A DNA stretch of 63,441 nucleotides, the filler included, from Licmophora abbreviata (lineage: Eukaryota): assembly GCA_900291995.1 (NCBI GenBank). It is 9 parts of 9 records of this genome, joined end to end, with 100 filler letters (N's around TTAATTAATTAA, not from the genome) between each part and the next. Parts side by side here need not be neighbours in the genome. Positions count along the whole stretch, not along the records: positions 37,634 to 44,683 come from OLMU01002953.1; 8 more parts are not named here. The stretch is one strand, 5' to 3'. Below the pieces are notes generated by a model that worked only from the letters and a program-made list of their open reading frames with translations, did not search any database and was not told the DNA's origin. Below are positions 38,271-45,036 of this stretch, in pieces (the first letter of the stretch is position 1; every line of letters begins with the position of its first letter). The position numbers and the translations under genes are program-made.

Positions 38271-41200
38271 CTAGTCGTCGAATTGAGGGACGTATCCAAC
38301 ACGTCGGAGCGCCAAGTACCACTTGAGCTTTTCGCACCACTTGCCAAACTCGGCCTTGTCCCGCTCGGAGCGTTCATTGTACGGAGTATCGATGAACAAA
38401 TCACCCATGATAGGGCGCAGAAACTCCGTCATGGTAAACTTGCCCCCGTCTCGACCAGAAGTGTTTGGATCAGCGACAACGTTCATTTCGGTCACTCTTT
38501 CTGTCTCCTCGAGCTGCTCCCATTCATCCTTGGTTGGAGGCGTCGAGAAGTGGGCTAGACGCTGGAGAGGCACGGCGCGCCCCTGGACGAGTCCGTCGAA
38601 GACGTGGCCGACGACCGTCGAGACTTGAATTGGACGACCGTTCGATGGAGACATTGCGATTGTCTGTGGGTGTTCGCCGGCAAGGAACCGTTCGTGAGAA
38701 GATTCCCAAGATGCAAGGCCTGTCTTCTTGACCGCCTTGTATACAGCATGCTCCCATGATTTGGAGGGCTGAAATGGCGCGCCGTCTGATGGGAATATAA
38801 GCGACTTGCTGTTGGTGATGGCAGAGGGCACAGCAGTCTCGCTGCTGTTTGGTTGCACTTCTTCAAGCCATGCATTCAGGCTAAAGACCAAGGAGTCGAG
38901 CTCGCTCGATCGCACACCAGCCGCAAGTAGAGCGCTTCGCTCGACGAGCAATCCGGGTGTCATGGTCGCGACAGCGTATGCGACCGAAGCCATAAGATGC
39001 TCAGCCATAACAGAAGCGGGCGCCATGCCGTTGCGGATGGCAGCGGTGGAACGCCATTTTTCGATACGCCCAATGAGTTCCTGCAGCTGAGCAAAGCGCT
39101 CTTCCTTGCCGTTCTTCTGAAGACGATCAAGATAGCCGTGCCATTTCGAAAAGGCACGAATAACCTCGCCATCGCCCGATTCCACTTCCTCCTTTGGAAT
39201 CTGTTCGAGATTGACACCGGCGTCTTTCAGATCGTTCAAGATACGTTGCCGCTTTTCTTCTTCCTTCGTTTCGGCGTCACGCAGCGACTGTGGAACGGGA
39301 AGCAGGACGGAGATGTCGGCGGTTCGAAGCGCGTCGCGACCCTGTGCCGTCAATCTGTATGTAGTCCAAGTTCGCTGTCAATAGCAAAATGCAACGCAGG
39401 GGACATGTTGATATTAGCTTCATTTAAAGAGCGACGGTTCCGGCATCGTCGTCTTCTCACTTACCGAAAATCCGTTTACTACAGTTGACTTTGTTCCTTG
39501 CTCCACGTATCCCTTGGCCGACAATGGCGCGACAAGTTCGCGAAAGAAGTTCGCAGAGTACTTTCTTGCGCCCAACGGCTGACGCCGCTGCTGAATCGAT
39601 TTCTGTACAGAAGTCGCGCTGCATCCAGAACGATAACGAAAGTCCTCCACCTTGTTGCCGGCAATGACCTTTTCAATGTTGGTCAGGCTCTGGTCGGGCA
39701 GAGCATCGATCGCCTCCAGTACAATGCGCGCCCCCAGTGGCCCAAAGTCACGTTCATTGTCGGCTCCGTACTTGACGAAACGTTGGCATGTATCGCATGT
39801 CCCACACCGCTCACCAAACGACGGCGTTTCGTCGAAAAATTCCAACAAGGCCCTTCGACGACACTTTTCCGTGTTCAGCGCATACTCACGCAAGGCGTCG
39901 ATGCTCCTGAACATCGATTGCTTGGCTTCGCCTCGCAACGCTCCGGTATAGAAATCGCCCTTGTACCGATCAAAGTCAGAGTCTCCCACAAACATGTGGC
40001 ACTCGGCAGTAAGACCATCGCGTCCCGCCCGACCAATCTGTTGGTAGTACTCTTCCACTGTCTTCGGGGAGCCCCAGTGAACGACGCGTCTCGTATCTGC
40101 CTTATCGATTCCCATACCAAATGCTGTCGTTGCCACAATGACTTGTGTCTGACCCACTAAAAAGTTAGTGTGCGCCGACTTGCGTGCGTCATGCGACAGG
40201 CCCGCATGGTAGGCTTCTACCCTCACACCATTGACGTCGCTCGCTGTGGCATCCAATCGTTGCTGGAGGAACGAGGAAATGTCGTCGACCAAATCACGAG
40301 TGGGCGCGTACAGAATGGTACTGCTCGAACGCAGTTTACGCAGAAAGTCAATGGAGAATGCAGCCTTGTATCCTCCACTGGTCTTTTTCGTGACATGAAT
40401 GCGCAAATTGGGACGATCAAATGTTTGTCGGACAATGGTGGGACTGCGCAGACCCAGACTTGTCACAATGTCTTTTTGGACTCGGGGGACGGCCGTTGCC
40501 GTGAGGGCCACCATGGGTACCTCTGAGAGTACTCGATGAGCGCGGATCTGATCGAGCTGACGATACTCGGGACGAAAGTCGTGCCCCCACTGACTGACGC
40601 AATGGCTTTCGTCAATGGCAATCAAACACAGTTCTTGCTTGTGTTGATGCATGTTTGCCAAGGCGGGTAGGAATCCTCCGGCGAGGAGTTTCTCGGGAGT
40701 GACGTAGACCAGACGGTACTCGCCATTCAATGCCTTGATTTCTTCCAAAGGATCCATCTGTCCACTTCCCAAATACGTGGCGAGTTTATCGTTGCTGCTG
40801 TCCGCCAAGAGTCCATTCAATTTCCGCACTTGATCCTGCATGAGCGAAATGAGTGGCGACACGACGACTGCCACCTTATTGGTAAAGAGGGGAGGAATCT
40901 GAAAACAAAGACTCTTGCCTGACCCAGTGGCCCAATAAACGGCCGCATCTTGCCTCTGATTCACCAATGCTTCAATCACTTGGAGTTGGCCAGGACGGAA
41001 CTTTGGGAATCCAAAGTAATGACGGAGTGTGTCTTCTAAAGTCGGAAAGGCTGGTGCTGTGGTAGCCTTGGCAGTGGACGGGATTGCCGCTGTACTAGTA
41101 CTGCTACTACTGAAGCTCGTGGCCAATTCTTGTTTGGGATTCGTCTTTGTGCCCATGACAATGTTGGAATTGGGTGGAAACACGGAGGATGAAGCGGGCG

Positions 41201-41321
41201 CATCTTGGAGAGGAGTCCTCCTGAGACGCTTGTTGCTTGCGTCACTATTCTGCTGGTGGGCATTCACAGCGGCATCGACATCAAAGTCAGCGAGAAAGTC
41301 GACGTCATCTTCAAATTCCAT
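38271..41321 (-). CDS. RecQ-family DNA helicase (WRN-like, with RQC, HRDC and C-terminal HTH-like region); 2 exons
   Basis: ATGSGKSLC, IDESHCVSQWGHDFRPEY, LTATA, FGMGIDK, YYQQIGRAGRDG and Zn site CRR...CGTCDTC. Phase-0 intron 39464-39375. The frame is open upstream to 41660. Confidence 0.93.
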
Positions 41322-41766
41322 GGCGCCGTTGTTACTCAATCGAAATTGTGATGTGGAAGTTGCAAGAGTTGCCAAACTGGAGTGAGGATACCGACGTCGA
41401 AGTTGACAGGTCCTGTGAGCAGTTGATGGACGACAGTATGCTGTAACACTCAAAATGAAGTCCCTGGATCGAACCAGGAGCAAAAATCGAGATAAGACTA
41501 TGATGATGCGACGTAGCAGAGAGCCAGAGCCGACGACAGGGTGCTTATTTCGAAGAGACATGCAAAGCGACAGCAATGCGACCGACAAAAGGATTTTGTG
41601 TGAGTGAAATCTGAAATCTGATGAAATCTGCATTCCAAACATGAAAGGGTCTGTCATCATCAGTCATGTCGGTACCATCGGCGAGACAGCAGCGTGAGAT
41701 GTTTCTCTCTCGCGAGCACACACACAAAACTGAAGACACAAAGCGCTATTTATCATCATCATTGCC

Positions 41767-43116
41767 ATGCCCTCCTCCTCGCCATCTTCTTCCAAGAGCT
41801 TTGTGCAAGAGTACCTTCCTCCAGATGTTCTGGAGAAACTGGAGGCCGGAGCGTTCCGAAGTTTGCGCCAGCATCTCGAAGAGCGATCTGCCCAAGTCTC
41901 AAATATAGATTTGATGACGCTGTCGGGCTTCTGTCGAAACTGTCTTGCCAAAGTGAGTATAATGCTACTAGTATACTTCTTGTATATGAAATACTGCGCA
42001 TGCGAACCTTTCACGGTCTCTCACAAAGCTTTTTCGTTCCTTTCTTTCTCCGTAGTGGATGGTTCTCGAGGCACGACGGCTAGCCAAACAAGAGGGTGTG
42101 TCGGATCCCTTGTTGGAGCAAGCGCTGAATGCTCTTGGATACGATGAGGCGGCGCAATACGTCTATGGATGCGACTACAAGGAATGGAAAAAGCGATACA
42201 TGACCAAGGCCACCGATGAACAAATGTACGTTCATGGAGCTCTCAAGACTATAGTCGTGTCTTGCAATTGTGTGGGTGAGCTTCACTCATGTTTGTTATT
42301 TTACGTGCTCCCAGGAAGCGATACCAAGAGAGTGAGTCTCTTCATGCCAAGCATGACAAGGAACTGCTGAAGGCTCGAGCCGAACGACCCACTACAGCGA
42401 TTCATGAGGCGATAGACGGATCGAATACAACTGTCCAGACAAGTACTGGCTCGCTCGTCCCTTCCAATGTGTGTTGCCAGGACGTGGAGGAGGATCCCAT
42501 GTCGAACGCCCTCATGGCGACAGTGCCTTCCATCCGCAACAAGCCTGCCGCCAAGCAGGCACGCGCCCTTCCTGCCTTTGTGCCTCCACCGCCCCCTGCA
42601 ACAACCATGTCCATAACTACGTGCATCTTAACCGTGTCGGATCGCGCCTCGCAGAATCTATACGACACTGGAGACCTATCAGGGCCTGCTGTCGAAGAGC
42701 ATGCGCAGGCAGCATGTGAAGCGCTAGGGGTGAGCTGTGCGGTAGTGGAAAAGAGGATTGTTCCGGATAATGTGGACGCTATTCAGAAGGCATTAAAACA
42801 ATGGTGCAACAACGACATCGACGTTGTCTGGACGACGGGAGGCACGGGATTCGGACCGCGCGATGTAACGCCCGAGGCCACGACGCAAATTTTAGACCGC
42901 GAGTGCAAGGGCCTCATGTCCTTTGTGGCGACCGAGTGCAGCAAACAGCAACCTCTCGCGTCACTCTCGCGCGGCACAGCGGGTGTTCTCCAAAACACGT
43001 TGATTGTTAACTTGCCGGGAAATCCAAAGGGCGTTGGCGAGATTTTTCCAGTCCTGCTACCCGTGTTGCTGCACGCCATTCATGACATGCAGGCCTCTGC
43101 AATCGTCAAGAAGTAG
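41767..43116 (+). CDS. Fusion protein: DUF1244-like domain plus MogA/Cnx1G (gephyrin G) molybdopterin adenylyltransferase; 3 exons, 385 aa
   Basis: Exons 41767-41952, 42056-42225 and 42315-43116 join in frame. N-part: LEAGAFRSL..HL.ER...NIDLM.LSGFCRNCLAKW...VYG..Y.EWK. C-part: LTVSD, DLSG, TTGGTGFGPRDVTPEAT, SRG.AG and NLPGNPKG. Confidence 0.88.
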
Positions 43117-43488: not shown

Positions 43489-45036
43489 TTAACTCTCGGG
43501 AGCATCCCCTCCGCCACCATCGGCTCCACCGTTGTCGTCGCCCTTGCCCGCCTCAACATCCGTTTTGGGACGGACCCACGTCTTCGACGCAAGCATGCTC
43601 GCAACCTGAGCGCGATACCCACCGCGACCACGGCCTCGTCCCCTGTAGCTACGTCCACCACGTCCACGGTATCCACGGCCTCCGTAGGAGGCGGAGACAA
43701 TCGGAGACGGGTGGGCTGCCGCATCTGCGTCGTATCCACCCTCGCCCTCTTGTCCGTCAGCAGCTGACGGGGTTACTTCCTGGCCATCAGGACCTCCTTC
43801 CGGTGACTCAAAGGCACGGCCTCCGCGACCGCGACCACGGCCTCGCGATCCCCGACCACGGCCGCCTCGACCGCCACGGTATCCACCTCTCCATGGAGAA
43901 TAGTCGTAGTATCCCCCATCATGGCCACCACCGTACGGCTCATCGTACGACTCCTCGCCGTACCCATCATTCTGCCACTCCGCAGACTCGTCGACTCGCT
44001 GACGTTTTCCTTCAGGACCAACACGACCTCGTCCGCCTCCACGACCTGCACCGCGTCCACCTCGGCCGTATCCCGAGTTGGCAGGAATAAAGTCGTCTTC
44101 ATCATCACGATCACGACGTTTTCCCGTCATGGGAGCGCCCCGACCCCCTCGGTCATTTTCTCGACGTGGTGGCCCTCGACCATCGCGACCACCTCGTCCG
44201 CTTCTGCCTCCGGGGTCGCCACCGCGTCCACCCCCACCTCGAGCATTGCGACCACCACGGCCTCCTCGATCATCGCGGCCACCCCCACGCCCCGGTCCAG
44301 GACCACCTCGCTGCCATCGAGCATCGTCACCACGTCGTCCACCACCATCACGGTGATCGCCTCGGTGGCCCCGACCTCCCGACAAACGTTCAAACGCTTC
44401 CGACGGGGTCGACCGTCCGCCACGGCCCCTTCGATCCTCGCGCCGATCACGACCACGGTCATCCCCTCGATCCTTTCGCTGCTGATGCTTATCATTATTG
44501 CGCCGGTCATCCTGACCGCGACCACGGTCGTCTCGTCGCTCATTGCGACGACCACGACCTTCTTTCCGGTCGTCTTGTTTCTTGTTGGTACTGTCTTTCT
44601 TACTCTTGCTGTCCGCATCCTTTTTAGCACCCTTGCGCGACGACCCCAGAGCACCCGACATGGTCAGTGCATTGTTCTCTGCGNNNNNNNNNNNNNNNNN
44701 NNNNNNNNNNNNNNNNNNNNNNNNNNNTTAATTAATTAANNNNNNNNNNNNNNNNNNNNNNNNNNNNNNNNNNNNNNNNNNNNCACTGAGCGTCTTTCCC
44801 AGTCCCGCCCCCGAGGATTCGGGAAGAATTTCCATGTCCATGCTCAGAAGCTCCTGGATGACGTACTCGACCGTCTTGCCATTGGAAATCATGGCTAGCG
44901 TGTAATCGATCAAGTCGACGACATCCTCCAGCGTATCGGGAGACTTTGGAAGCTGTTCTTGTAGCGCCTCGCGTAACTGTGTATTTTCGGCTTCTGTCAA
45001 CTTGCGGGGAGCCGCAATGGAGGCGTTGTATGACAT
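43489..45036 (-). CDS. RGG-rich putative RNA-binding protein with PWI-like N-terminal helical domain, spanning a gap
   Basis: N-part: L..QL......DV.DLIDY.LAMISNGKT.EY..QEL. After the gap there is a long RG/RGG low-complexity region ending in KTWVR. Confidence 0.7.
44684..44783. other. Assembly gap linker
   Basis: N44-TTAATTAATTAA-N44. Confidence 0.98.

What the first reader, a model, noticed from the sequence alone, without database searches (positions are those of the whole stretch)
41767..43116. DUF1244-like domain fused in frame to a MogA/Cnx1G molybdenum-cofactor enzyme
Seen: three ORF fragments join through two canonical GT-AG introns into one 385-aa protein. The N-terminal ~130 aa carry the pattern I recognise as the proteobacterial unknown-function family DUF1244 (EA.AFR.L..HL, NIDLM.L.GFCRNCL.KW, VYG..Y.EWK). 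A linker with a CC pair follows, then an intact MogA/gephyrin-G domain. Established: plant Cnx1 and animal gephyrin fuse the G domain to the MoeA-like E domain, and no E domain is present here. Inference: this Rosetta-stone fusion suggests a role for DUF1244 in Moco synthesis, for example metal (Cu/Mo/Fe-S) handling through its CxxC. That would matter for algal nitrate reductase. I am not aware of a description of this architecture but cannot search.
Basis: partly seen in the sequence, partly recalled or inferred. Interest (0 to 1): 0.78.

Follow-up and report, generated by a model that had tools for sequence, protein, structure and literature searches.

The report
DUF1244 domain fused to diatom MogA
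A diatom-type gene joins the enzyme that activates molybdopterin for molybdenum-cofactor synthesis to a small bacterial-type domain of unknown function, and both the conservation of this fusion and the domain's distribution in bacteria tie that orphan domain to the molybdenum cofactor.

Summary
Exons 41767-41952, 42056-42225 and 42315-43116 join through GT-AG introns into a 385-aa protein. It holds a complete DUF1244 domain, an ~85-aa linker with a Cys-Cys pair, and a Cnx1G/MogA domain.

Intron 2 lies inside the DUF1244 homology, so exon 3 alone carries the DUF1244 tail, the linker and MogA in one frame. Transcript-derived ORFs of relatives read straight through it.

Of the 120 best relatives, 118 show the fused form or its linker motif. 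Other protists carry MoeA-DUF1244(x1-2)-MogA and DUF1244-MogA-DUF1244-MoeA.

New here: in 301 alphaproteobacterial genomes DUF1244 never occurs without MoeA (172 with, 0 without; 92 genomes lack MoeA). In 300 gammaproteobacterial genomes the split is 83 to 1, and the exception has MoaC. Two control families are not nested this way. One gammaproteobacterium has mobA-mobB-moeA-DUF1244 in a row.

No paper found links DUF1244 to the cofactor.

Verdict: a real, conserved accessory domain of the molybdenum-insertase step. Its chemistry is unknown; the CxxC and linker Cys suggest thiol or metal handling.

The parts
41767..41952 (+). Exon 1 (62 codons): N-terminus and first part of DUF1244, ending ...GFCRNCLAK
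   Evidence: 81 of 120 short relatives derail right after CRNCLAK, reading V = GTx into an intron. The intron position is therefore shared.
41953..42055 (+). Intron 1, 103 nt, GT...AG, phase 0
   Evidence: Pfam profile positions 1-19 lie before it and 31-61 after it.
42056..42225 (+). Exon 2: middle of DUF1244 (WMVLEARRL...VYGCDYKEWKK...ATDEQ)
42226..42314 (+). Intron 2, 89 nt, GT...AG, phase 2. It lies inside the DUF1244 homology.
   Evidence: Relatives P0126 and P0128-P0130 end at ..E[ED]Q[ML]. P0008 is a gene model that retains an intron at this place.
42315..43116 (+). Exon 3: DUF1244 C-terminal tail, linker and MogA/Cnx1G domain, ending in the TAG stop
41821..42363 (+). DUF1244 (SMc04008-like) homology region, residues 19-135, interrupted by both introns
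   Evidence: Own HMM from bacterial proteins, E 2.2e-30. The relative P0051 matches PDB 2o35 and 3fyb at E 6e-17 and 7e-17. Coordinates.
41932..41943 (+). CxxC (C56-R-N-C59) inside the invariant GFCRNCL motif
   Evidence: Invariant in 24 of 24 (A1), 17 of 17 (A2) and 30 of 30 (A3) aligned sequences. It lies at the N-terminal end of a helix in both AF2 models. Coordinates.
42316..42357 (+). KRYQESESLHAKHD: the C-terminal tail of the DUF1244 protein, beyond the Pfam profile
   Evidence: It aligns to the bacterial tails ...DEQMKRFEETKPLHAK.
42463..42489 (+). Linker motif SNVCCQDVE, with the CC pair at 42472-42477
   Evidence: V and the first C are invariant in 30 of 30 full-length fusion proteins. 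A [DN]VC-type motif lies between DUF1244 and MogA in 108 of 112 fusion proteins by regex. The other 4 show it by eye, with variants such as TCC or SVCC. pLDDT is below 50, so it is not docked in the monomer model.
42571..42597 (+). Pro-rich linker motif PAFVPPPPP just before the G domain
   Evidence: The A3 consensus reads PPxxPPxPP. Coordinates.
42625..43074 (+). MogA/Cnx1G domain (MoCF_biosynth), with ILTVSDRAS, TTGGTG, PRDVTPEAT and NLPGNP
   Evidence: PF00994 E 4.4e-24. TIGR00177 scores 104.3 bits against a cut-off of 85.35. It aligns to Cnx1G 1o8q residues 8-163 of 167, E 5.8e-34.

Best explanation
The gene encodes a Cnx1G/MogA-type molybdopterin (MPT) adenylyltransferase, step 3 of molybdenum-cofactor synthesis. 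I infer it is the organism's main one. It is built as DUF1244, then a flexible linker with an invariant Val-Cys(-Cys), then the G domain.

DUF1244 is not a stray passenger. It is an accessory module of the molybdenum-insertase step. In relatives it sits between the MoeA (E) and MogA (G) domains, once or twice. Diatom MoeA is reported to stand alone, and there the module stays on G.

Proposed mechanism, inferred and not shown:
- DUF1244 forms its obligate interlaced dimer, between two chains here or between tandem copies within one chain in relatives.
- This places its invariant helix-capping CxxC and the linker cysteine beside the G trimer.
- There these thiols handle the dithiolene or metal chemistry, or the hand-over of MPT, MPT-AMP or Moco to and from MoeA.

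My odds for each step:
- The fusion is real: 0.97.
- DUF1244 is functionally tied to the Moco pathway: 0.8.
- It acts at the G/E insertase step: 0.6.
- The cysteines do thiol or metal chemistry rather than a purely structural job: 0.4.
For: Shown:
- Gene model and both domains.
- Intron 2 lies within the DUF1244 homology, so exon 3 alone links the two parts.
- Transcript ORFs of relatives read continuously across the junction.
- Of the 120 best relatives, 102 have DUF1244 and 16 more keep the SNVCC linker motif.
- Other architectures exist: E-D-D-G (P0241, P0243, P0244), E-D-G (P0359), D-D-G (P0248, P0251), D-G (P0284) and D-G-D-E (P0245).
- A Cys motif lies between DUF1244 and G in all 112 fusion proteins examined.

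Phyletic pattern:
- Alphaproteobacteria, 301 genomes: DUF1244+MoeA+ 172, DUF1244+MoeA- 0, DUF1244-MoeA+ 37, both absent 92.
- Gammaproteobacteria, 300 genomes: 83, 1, 118, 98 in the same order. The single exception, G546, has MoaC and two MoCF_biosynth genes.
- Control FGase: 26 of 212 FGase+ genomes lack MoeA, and none of those 26 has DUF1244.
- Control GCS2: 13 of 38 GCS2+ genomes lack MoeA, odds ratio 0.94.
- The 10 smallest DUF1244+ genomes (1.2-1.5 Mb) all keep MoeA. Ten small DUF1244- genomes have none.

Other support:
- A same-strand array mobA-mobB-moeA-DUF1244 with a 19-nt gap in G450.
- PMC2954204 (passage) lists the SMc04008-like family among globular oligomers of interlocking non-compact subunits. 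The AF2 monomer model fits the crystal chains poorly (TM 0.39-0.49), as expected for such a subunit.
- The diatom domain keeps all family-invariant residues.
- PMC11733289 (passages) reports that MoeA of Bacillariophyta lacks the MogA domain that most Sar phyla have.
- PMC11489736 (passages) shows that the linkage region of a fungal Mo insertase is functionally essential.
Against: - Bacterial neighbourhoods mostly give no Moco link. Among 80 loci (±3 genes) the clusters seen in 3 or more loci are FGase 15, GCS2 14, pyruvate kinase 13 and GapR about 9, plus others. None is a Moco gene.
- tblastn finds moeA in 1 of 80 loci and mogA in 0 of 80.
- The commonest bacterial fusion partner is FGase: 76 of 120 listed long forms, by my count of the table. 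Others are GCS2 and HopJ-like proteins and, by the precomputed Pfam column only, PurD and GapR. This fits a generic module.
- 37 of 209 (alpha) and 118 of 201 (gamma) MoeA+ genomes lack DUF1244. E. coli and 12 other control genomes also lack it. It is therefore not essential for Moco synthesis.
- The phyletic counts are not corrected for shared ancestry or genome size, and genome completeness was not reported.
- An AU test does not reject a single origin of all MogA-fused domains (p 0.49). The eukaryotic architectures may be one old event rearranged, not several independent fusions.
- The linker with the Cys motif is modelled as disordered, with pTM 0.53.
- No biochemical datum on DUF1244 was found.
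Confidence: 0.6

Rival explanations
1. Scaffold only. DUF1244 is a chemically inert dimerising spacer, the structured linkage region of this lineage's Mo insertase. It adds two-fold symmetry to the G trimer, as the E dimer does in Cnx1 and gephyrin. The cysteines are structural, for example a zinc site or a disulfide.
For: It sits exactly where the E-G linker lies. PMC2954204 describes interlocking oligomers for this family. Tandem duplication recurs in two lineages: P0241-P0244, and P0248 and P0251. Bacterial fusion partners are promiscuous. The linkage region is essential in N. crassa (PMC11489736, passages).
Against: A stand-alone ~100-aa protein with no enzyme attached is the common bacterial form, and it still tracks MoeA perfectly. 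The CxxC and the whole RxDVQNIDLMxLxGFCRNCL block are invariant from bacteria to diatoms. This is more than a spacer needs.
Confidence: 0.2
2. Downstream role. DUF1244 binds or protects finished Moco or MPT as a carrier or storage protein, or serves one particular molybdoenzyme or Mo-dependent regulation. It is not part of the insertase chemistry.
For: Its presence is nested within Moco-pathway genomes, but it is absent from many of them. That is typical of an accessory or carrier function. It is rarely in Moco operons.
Against: Every fused eukaryote-type form seen joins it to G and/or E, the insertase domains themselves. The one bacterial array found places it directly after moeA. No molybdoenzyme fusion was seen among the 360 proteins listed.
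Confidence: 0.13
3. Unrelated function. DUF1244 works with FGase- and GCS2-type amide-bond enzymes. The link to MogA is one old accidental fusion, and the co-occurrence with MoeA reflects shared lifestyle or lineage.
For: FGase and GCS2 are the recurrent neighbours and fusion partners. A single origin of the eukaryotic fusions is not rejected. The counts are not corrected for phylogeny.
Against: DUF1244 occurs without FGase in 13 of 172 genomes but never without MoeA. None of the 26 FGase+ MoeA- genomes has it. GCS2 shows no association with MoeA. The pattern repeats in a second class. The fusion is kept with all invariant residues across divergent lineages and rearrangements.
Confidence: 0.05
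4. Gene-model artefact. There are two adjacent genes, DUF1244 and MogA, wrongly joined by an imagined intron 2.
For: No RNA reads of this organism were available to confirm the junction. Read-through of intron 2 meets a stop at 42368-42370.
Against: The first 14 codons of exon 3 after the junction are the conserved DUF1244 tail, in frame with MogA and with no stop between. Transcript ORFs of relatives are continuous. The same intron positions recur in relatives.
Confidence: 0.02

Closest known systems
Plant Cnx1, G domain (Arabidopsis Cnx1G; PDB 1o8q, 1uux, 1eav)
   Same: It is the best solved-structure match of exon 3 (E 5.8e-34, residues 8-163 of 167). The LTVSD, GGTGF.PRDVTPEAT, LSR..AG and PGNP blocks are conserved. 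Relatives P0241, P0243 and P0244 have the plant-like order, E before G.
   Different: Cnx1 joins E directly to G by a short linker. Here there is no E domain, and a complete DUF1244 plus a Cys-bearing linker precedes G.
Gephyrin (PDB 1ihc, 1jlj, 9s3f)
   Same: The G domain is homologous (E about 5e-30). Gephyrin also combines a trimerising G domain with a dimerising second domain through a long flexible linker. The oligomer states are established knowledge and are stated in PMC11733289 (passages).
   Different: Gephyrin's second domain is the MoeA-like E domain and the order is G-linker-E. Here the second domain is DUF1244 and it is N-terminal.
Stand-alone MogA/CNX1G (E. coli MogA 1di6; Chlamydomonas CNX1G)
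   Same: Same enzyme family and presumed reaction, MPT adenylylation. E and G are separate, as reported for algae (PMC11489736 passages) and for diatom MoeA (PMC11733289 passages).
   Different: Those proteins carry no extra domain. E. coli has no DUF1244 at all (control line).
SMc04008-like / DUF1244 proteins (PDB 2o35 Sinorhizobium meliloti, 3fyb Alcanivorax borkumensis)
   Same: Same family: P0051 residues 22-133 match 2o35 at E 6e-17, and Foldseek finds only these two entries at E of 0.001 or below. All invariant residues are kept.
   Different: The bacterial proteins are about 100 aa, stand alone and have no assigned function. The diatom copy has an insertion after ...CLAKW and is fused to an enzyme.
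Bacterial FGase-DUF1244 fusions (for example P0262, 354 aa)
   Same: DUF1244 is used as a fused module on an enzyme.
   Different: The partner is an N-formylglutamate-amidohydrolase-family protein, DUF1244 is C-terminal, and there is no Cys linker motif.
Linkage region of fungal Mo insertase NIT-9 (PMC11489736)
   Same: It is a lineage-specific segment between G and E that is needed for function (passages). DUF1244 occupies that position in the E-D-G and E-D-D-G relatives.
   Different: The fungal element is a short lineage-specific sequence, not an independently folding domain shared with bacteria.

Membership tests
MogA / Cnx1G MPT adenylyltransferase (MoCF_biosynth) | Pfam PF00994 and TIGR00177 above their curated cut-offs | tested here: met
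   PF00994 scores 85.2 bits against 26.6. TIGR00177 scores 104.3 against 85.35. Bacterial equivalog models such as NF006932 are matched below cut-off, at 104.9 against 158.
MogA / Cnx1G MPT adenylyltransferase (MoCF_biosynth) | Full-length similarity to biochemically characterised G domains, with the conserved SDR, GGTG, PRDVTPEAT and PGNP blocks | tested here: met
   Cnx1G 1o8q E 5.8e-34 over residues 8-163 of 167. The blocks are visible in the printed alignment. That these blocks form the active site is recalled, not tested.
MogA / Cnx1G MPT adenylyltransferase (MoCF_biosynth) | Catalyses MPT adenylylation; complements mogA | not testable with these tools
   Needs a bench assay.
DUF1244 / SMc04008-like (PF06844) | Profile match above the gathering score | tested here: met
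   The exon 1 piece scores 35.7 bits and the exon 2 piece 33.3 bits, against 27. The spliced protein scores E 2.2e-30 against my own HMM, covering HMM positions 8-103.
DUF1244 / SMc04008-like (PF06844) | Family-invariant residues (AxAFR, HL, R.D/xV.N.DLM, GFCRNCL, KW, YG, WK) | tested here: met
   Alignments A1 to A3. The window has VSNID where most sequences have VQNID.
DUF1244 / SMc04008-like (PF06844) | Interlaced obligate oligomer of non-compact subunits | not testable with these tools
   Stated for the family in PMC2954204 (passage). The poor fit of AF2 monomers to the crystal chains (TM 0.39-0.49, rmsd 8.5-10 Å) is consistent but indirect.
Two-domain Mo insertase (Cnx1 / gephyrin type) | MoeA-like E domain in the same polypeptide as G | tested here: not met
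   No MoeA_N or MoeA_C in the gene and no MoeA anywhere in the window by tblastn. Relatives P0241-P0245 and P0359 do meet it.
Moco-pathway accessory gene (proposed membership of DUF1244) | Phyletic presence confined to genomes with the pathway | tested here: met
   MoeA_N in 172 of 172 (alpha) and 83 of 84 (gamma) DUF1244+ genomes. The exception has MoaC. The controls FGase and GCS2 are not confined in this way. The test is not corrected for phylogeny.
Moco-pathway accessory gene (proposed membership of DUF1244) | Recurrent operon linkage with Moco genes | tested here: not met
   No Moco gene among neighbour clusters seen in 3 or more of 80 loci. moeA is near in 1 of 80 loci. One clear array exists in G450.

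The most novel reading that the evidence does not exclude
DUF1244 is an unrecognised, widespread component of molybdenum-cofactor biosynthesis. It would be a thiol- or metal-handling subunit, or an MPT/Moco-carrying subunit, that works with MogA and MoeA in Alpha- and Gammaproteobacteria and is built into the Mo insertase of diatoms and other protists. It may have been overlooked because E. coli lacks it. Whether plants, fungi and animals lack it was not tested here.
Probability: 0.45. Interest if true: 0.85.

Novelty: new variant of a known kind. Interest (0 to 1): 0.75.

Why it matters
The last two steps of Moco synthesis are MPT adenylylation by G and molybdate insertion by E. They are under active study precisely because the way G and E are joined differs between lineages and matters for function (PMC11489736, PMC13262936, PMC11733289; passages read). 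This finding has four consequences.

- **A folded third domain.** A large group of ecologically dominant algae inserts a conserved, independently folding domain at that junction.
- **A first functional context.** A protein family with two crystal structures and no known role gains one.
- **A bacterial signal.** The co-occurrence pattern was obtained independently of the fusion and points the same way.
- **Ordinary tests are possible.** Diatom nitrate assimilation depends on Moco. An accessory factor with reactive cysteines could couple nitrate use to redox or trace-metal status. This is testable with mogA complementation, Cys mutants and metal analysis.

Tried and rejected
RNA and genome data for this organism:
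- No RNA holder is listed for this stretch. One run (X1, RNA only as a guess) held 0.12 of the sampled words. When laid, it gave two contigs inside exon 3 (42453-42629 and 42663-42834) and no joints. The junctions remain unconfirmed for this organism.
- No whole genome is held for the window. I could not look for a second MogA or for the organism's MoeA.

Tools that gave nothing usable:
I could not obtain taxon names for the unnamed hits, including the E-D-D-G proteins.
- Complex prediction on the E domain, G domain and tandem DUF1244 of P0241 scored 0.00 against a mark of 0.34. The verdict was no answer.
- The ESM Atlas search with the DUF1244 part returned only bacterial DUF1244 clusters, at scores of 0.82-0.84.
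- Earlier findings of this scan held nothing on DUF1244, only unrelated MogA fusions.
- Foldseek of a bacterial DUF1244 model found no significant fold relative other than 2o35 and 3fyb, so it gave no functional lead.

Literature searches that found nothing on DUF1244 and Moco:
- 'DUF1244' gave 2 papers, neither on Moco.
- 'PF06844' gave 0. 'SMc04008' gave 1. 'COG3492' gave 1, unrelated by its title and abstract. '2O35' or '3FYB' gave 1, a methods paper by its title and abstract.
- I also ran diatom and CNX1 searches and a MogA/MoeA/domain-fusion search.
- Supplements of PMC11733289: 9 files searched, a further one unreadable. Supplements of PMC13262936: 12 of 21 files searched. No hit in either.
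- Figure 1e of PMC11733289 shows 'other domains' in grey. I could not see the figure, so it may depict this domain without naming it.

Readings rejected:
- The two-gene model.
- A stand-alone MogA paralogue among the best hits. The 18 hits without DUF1244 are truncated models or too short to tell.

An early reading, that bacterial context gives no Moco link at all, was revised after the phyletic test.
Full report
**1. What is in the sequence**

The + strand between 41767 and 43116 holds three open segments that join through two canonical introns. The first is GTGAGT...CCGTAG, 103 nt. The second is GTACGT...CCCAG, 89 nt. The joined CDS is 1158 nt and the protein 385 aa.

Pfam places DUF1244 (PF06844) profile positions 1-19 at the end of exon 1 and positions 31-61 in exon 2. 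Each piece scores above the gathering cut-off on its own. MoCF_biosynth (PF00994) covers 2-144 of 144 positions in exon 3.

I built an HMM from 17 single-exon bacterial DUF1244 proteins. It aligns without interruption to residues 19-135 of the spliced protein (E 2.2e-30). tblastn with a full-length relative recovers exactly the three exons.

Exon 3 aligns over the whole length of the crystallised Cnx1 G domain (1o8q, E 5.8e-34). The LTVSD, GGTGF.PRDVTPEAT, LSR..AG and PGNP blocks are intact. It also passes the TIGR00177 domain cut-off.

**2. The fusion is real**

The bacterial proteins continue past the Pfam profile with a tail...ASDEQMKRFEETKPLHAK. The window's protein has ...ATDEQ | M | KRYQESESLHAKHD, with intron 2 falling at the bars. 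Intron 2 therefore interrupts the DUF1244 homology itself. Exon 3 carries the DUF1244 tail, the linker and the MogA domain in one frame with no stop.

Three MMETSP transcript ORFs marked 'complete' (P0010, P0071, P0075) and further EukProt proteins read straight through the same place.

Gene models made on contigs of relatives break at the same two spots:
- 81 of 120 short hits run off into V... directly after CRNCLAK.
- At least 6 end at ..E[ED]Q[ML].
- P0008 retains an intron there.

RNA of this very organism could not be examined.

**3. How widespread it is**

The search with exon 3 listed the best 120 proteins of 7501 with E of 0.001 or below.
- 100 of the 120 carry both PF00994 and PF06844 in the precomputed column, by my count.
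- My HMM finds DUF1244 in 102 of the 120.
- Of the remaining 18, 16 begin inside or after the intron-2 region and still hold the linker motif SNVCC or SDVCC. They are truncated models of the same fused gene. The other 2 are too short to tell.

Named members are diatoms: Nitzschia inconspicua, Cylindrotheca closterium, Seminavis robusta, Amphora coffeaeformis and Nitzschia sp. Two further names are cut off in the table as 'Synedr...' and 'Atthe...'. The best hit is only 61% identical, so the source organism itself seems not to be in the collection.

**4. Other architectures**

I searched long proteins with a bacterial DUF1244 (821 hits, best 120 listed). Pfam checks followed. D stands for DUF1244, E for MoeA and G for MogA.
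- E-D-D-G: P0241, P0243 and P0244 by Pfam scan, and P0242 by the precomputed column and my HMM. They are 863-902 aa, and two of them are EukProt ORFs marked complete.
- E-D-G: P0359.
- D-D-G of diatom type: P0248 and P0251.
- D-G of a non-diatom, Ala-rich type: P0284, and P0329 by the precomputed Pfam column.
- D-G-D-E: P0245. Its two D copies are identical over 105 residues, so it may be an assembly chimera of two isoforms.

In all 112 D+G proteins examined, a cysteine motif lies between DUF1244 and G. The forms are SNVCCQDVE in diatoms, HSDVC.GG.EQG in the E-D-D-G group, and VCGQxC or TCC elsewhere. Val and the first Cys are invariant in 30 of 30 aligned full-length proteins. Stand-alone bacterial proteins lack this motif.

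A tree of 75 DUF1244 domains splits the MogA-fused ones into three groups:
- a diatom clade with support 100;
- an E-D-D-G clade with support 99;
- an E-D-G plus D-G group with support 84.

An AU test does not reject putting all 33 MogA-fused domains in one clade (ΔlnL 0.71, p 0.49). I therefore cannot say whether there was one old fusion or several. The shared Cys motif favours one.

**5. Bacterial gene context**

Of 597 candidate stretches in species genomes, 596 encode a relative. The best 80 loci were kept. I clustered the three genes on either side of each. Recurrent neighbours, as loci out of 80:

| Neighbour | Loci of 80 |
|---|---|
| FGase-family amidohydrolase | 15 |
| GCS2 carboxylate-amine ligase (14 of its 15 copies directly upstream, same strand) | 14 |
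| Pyruvate kinase | 13 |
| GapR | about 9 |
| EamA | 5 |
| DUF1036 | 4 |

No Moco gene appears in any cluster seen in 3 or more loci. tblastn finds moeA in 1 of 80 loci (L014) and mogA in 0 of 80.

Fusions tell the same story. 76 of the 120 listed long forms are FGase-DUF1244, by my count. P0262 is confirmed as such. Single cases involve GCS2 and HopJ-like partners (confirmed) and, by the precomputed Pfam column only, PurD, GapR and BMFP. On this evidence alone I would have called DUF1244 a generic module.

**6. Phyletic profile**

This test changed my reading. I searched two evenly drawn samples of species genomes for DUF1244 (PF06844) and MoeA_N (PF03453).

| Sample | D+ MoeA+ | D+ MoeA- | D- MoeA+ | Both absent | D+ MoeA- expected if independent |
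|---|---|---|---|---|---|
| Alphaproteobacteria, 301 genomes | 172 | 0 | 37 | 92 | about 53 |
| Gammaproteobacteria, 300 scored, one not scored | 83 | 1 | 118 | 98 | about 28 |

- The single gamma exception is G546, an assembly of more than 250 contigs. It has MoaC (E 1e-56) and two MoCF_biosynth genes.
- The 10 smallest DUF1244+ alphaproteobacterial genomes (1.2-1.5 Mb) all keep MoeA. Ten small DUF1244- genomes (1.1-2.0 Mb) have none.

Controls on the same samples:
- FGase is DUF1244's commonest partner. It occurs in 26 MoeA- genomes (26 of 212 FGase+), and none of those 26 has DUF1244. DUF1244 occurs without FGase in 13 genomes.
- GCS2 shows no association with MoeA: 25 with, 13 without, odds ratio 0.94.

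Caveats:
- Fisher p-values (2e-47 and 1.4e-16) ignore shared ancestry and genome size.
- Completeness values were not given.
- MoeA_N stands in as a proxy for the whole pathway.
- Five unpublished genomes (G212, G342, G420, G565, G575) are all DUF1244+ MoeA+ and are included in the counts. Dropping them leaves 171 to 0 and 79 to 1.
- Missing genes in incomplete assemblies would create exceptions, not hide them.

In addition, one gammaproteobacterium (G450) has the tight same-strand array mobA-mobB-moeA-DUF1244, with 19 nt between moeA and DUF1244. In G408, DUF1244 lies 3.3 kb from a moeA/MoCF_biosynth cluster on the other strand.

DUF1244 is not universal among Moco users. 37 and 118 MoeA+ genomes lack it. 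Of 14 control genomes only Caulobacter has it, and E. coli does not.

**7. Structure**

- The AF2 model of a full-length relative (P0051, 30-sequence alignment) has two confident domains and a linker with pLDDT below 50 (residues 157-196, which include the Cys motif). pTM is 0.53.
- The CxxC sits at the start of a helix in both models. The helix is residues 60-77 in P0051, with Cys at 61 and 64, and residues 35-53 in P0140, with Cys at 39 and 42.
- The most conserved loop just before the CxxC has the lowest confidence within the domain.
- A review of structural-genomics folds lists SMc04008-like (DUF1244) among globular oligomers of interlocking non-compact subunits (PMC2954204, passage).
- In line with that, the monomer model fits the crystal chains only at TM 0.39-0.49. 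No other fold relative is significant.
- Recurrent tandem duplication of the domain (E-D-D-G and D-D-G) is what one would expect if a partner copy is obligatory. This is inference.

**8. Literature**

I read passages only, not whole papers.
- PMC11733289 reports that most Sar phyla and plants have MogA fused to the C-terminus of MoeA, but Bacillariophyta and Pelagophyceae do not. 'Other' domains are drawn grey in a figure I could not see.
- PMC11489736 shows that the linkage region of the Neurospora insertase is essential and that G-linker plus E partly complements.
- PMC13262936 and PMC6147048 survey domain arrangements and fusions without this one.
- The terms DUF1244, PF06844, SMc04008, COG3492, 2O35 and 3FYB occur in 2, 0, 1, 1 and 1 papers respectively (the last two PDB codes counted together). 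None links the family to Moco. For the COG3492 and PDB-code hits I saw only title and abstract.
- The searchable supplements of two of the insertase papers do not contain the term.
- Databases already annotate these proteins as 'molybdopterin adenylyltransferase', 'gephyrin' or 'CNX1', with both Pfam domains precomputed. The architecture is visible in databases but, as far as these searches reach, not discussed.

**9. Reading**

Shown:
- A real, conserved DUF1244-linker-MogA gene.
- Relatives in which the domain lies between, or beside, both insertase domains.
- A bacterial distribution confined to Moco-pathway genomes.

Inferred:
- DUF1244 is an accessory part of the insertase step.
- It acts as a dimer.
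- Its invariant CxxC and the fusion-specific linker cysteine do thiol or metal chemistry, or pass MPT or Moco on.

Copper on the MPT dithiolene in a Cnx1G crystal is something I recall, not something I checked here.

Unexplained: why alphaproteobacteria so often place or fuse DUF1244 next to FGase and GCS2 enzymes.

**10. Verdict**

This is a new variant of a known kind of system: a Mo-insertase component with an extra conserved domain. It has a good chance of revealing a new accessory factor of a textbook pathway. Interest 0.75.

Noticed in passing
window 39423-41663 (-): The upstream divergent neighbour is a RecQ-family helicase (DEAD, Helicase_C and RecQ_Zn_bind domains). Its likely start codon (MEFEDD...) lies about 450 bp from the ATG of the DUF1244-MogA gene, so the two may share a bidirectional promoter region.
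   Followed up: partly
window 43489-44727 (-): The downstream ORF encodes an Arg/Gly-rich (RGG-type) low-complexity protein that runs into a stretch of N. The window holds 704 N in all.
   Followed up: no
P0245 (EukProt transcript ORF, 880 aa): Its architecture is DUF1244-MogA-DUF1244-MoeA, with the two DUF1244 copies identical over 105 residues. It is either a very recent duplication or a transcript-assembly chimera of two isoforms that share a DUF1244 exon. The second case would mean one DUF1244 exon serves both G and E.
   Followed up: partly
L001-L080; P0258-P0360: In Alphaproteobacteria DUF1244 is very often adjacent to or fused with an FGase-family amidohydrolase (15 of 80 loci; 76 of 120 listed long forms). 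It often follows a GCS2 ligase (14 of 80 loci). GapR lies just downstream in about 9 of 80 loci. No explanation links these enzymes to Moco.
   Followed up: partly
L081 (G450:C164:2500-6643): There is a tight same-strand array mobA-mobB-moeA-DUF1244-M19 dipeptidase in one gammaproteobacterium. L014 (Azospirillum) has moeA on the opposite strand within about 200 bp of DUF1244.
   Followed up: yes
gammaproteobacterial genomes such as G314, G434, G482, G501, G505: About 20 gammaproteobacterial DUF1244 matches end at profile position 55-61, and about 10 of these, with a few longer matches, show a stop codon inside the match. This suggests a shorter C-terminus in that lineage. A preprint (10.1101/2025.10.02.679949, passage) predicts a -1 frameshift at codon 80 of a Marinobacter adhaerens DUF1244 gene that would add a new domain.
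   Followed up: no
P0241, P0243, P0246 (between the two DUF1244 copies): The first DUF1244 copy of the E-D-D-G proteins is also followed by a Cys-Cys pair (GCCKK, GGCCKR, DCCKK). A CC motif after the domain therefore recurs even between tandem copies.
   Followed up: no
P0264, P0260: DUF1244 is fused to a HopJ-family domain in Pseudomonas mangiferae and a relative. Its function is unknown.
   Followed up: no
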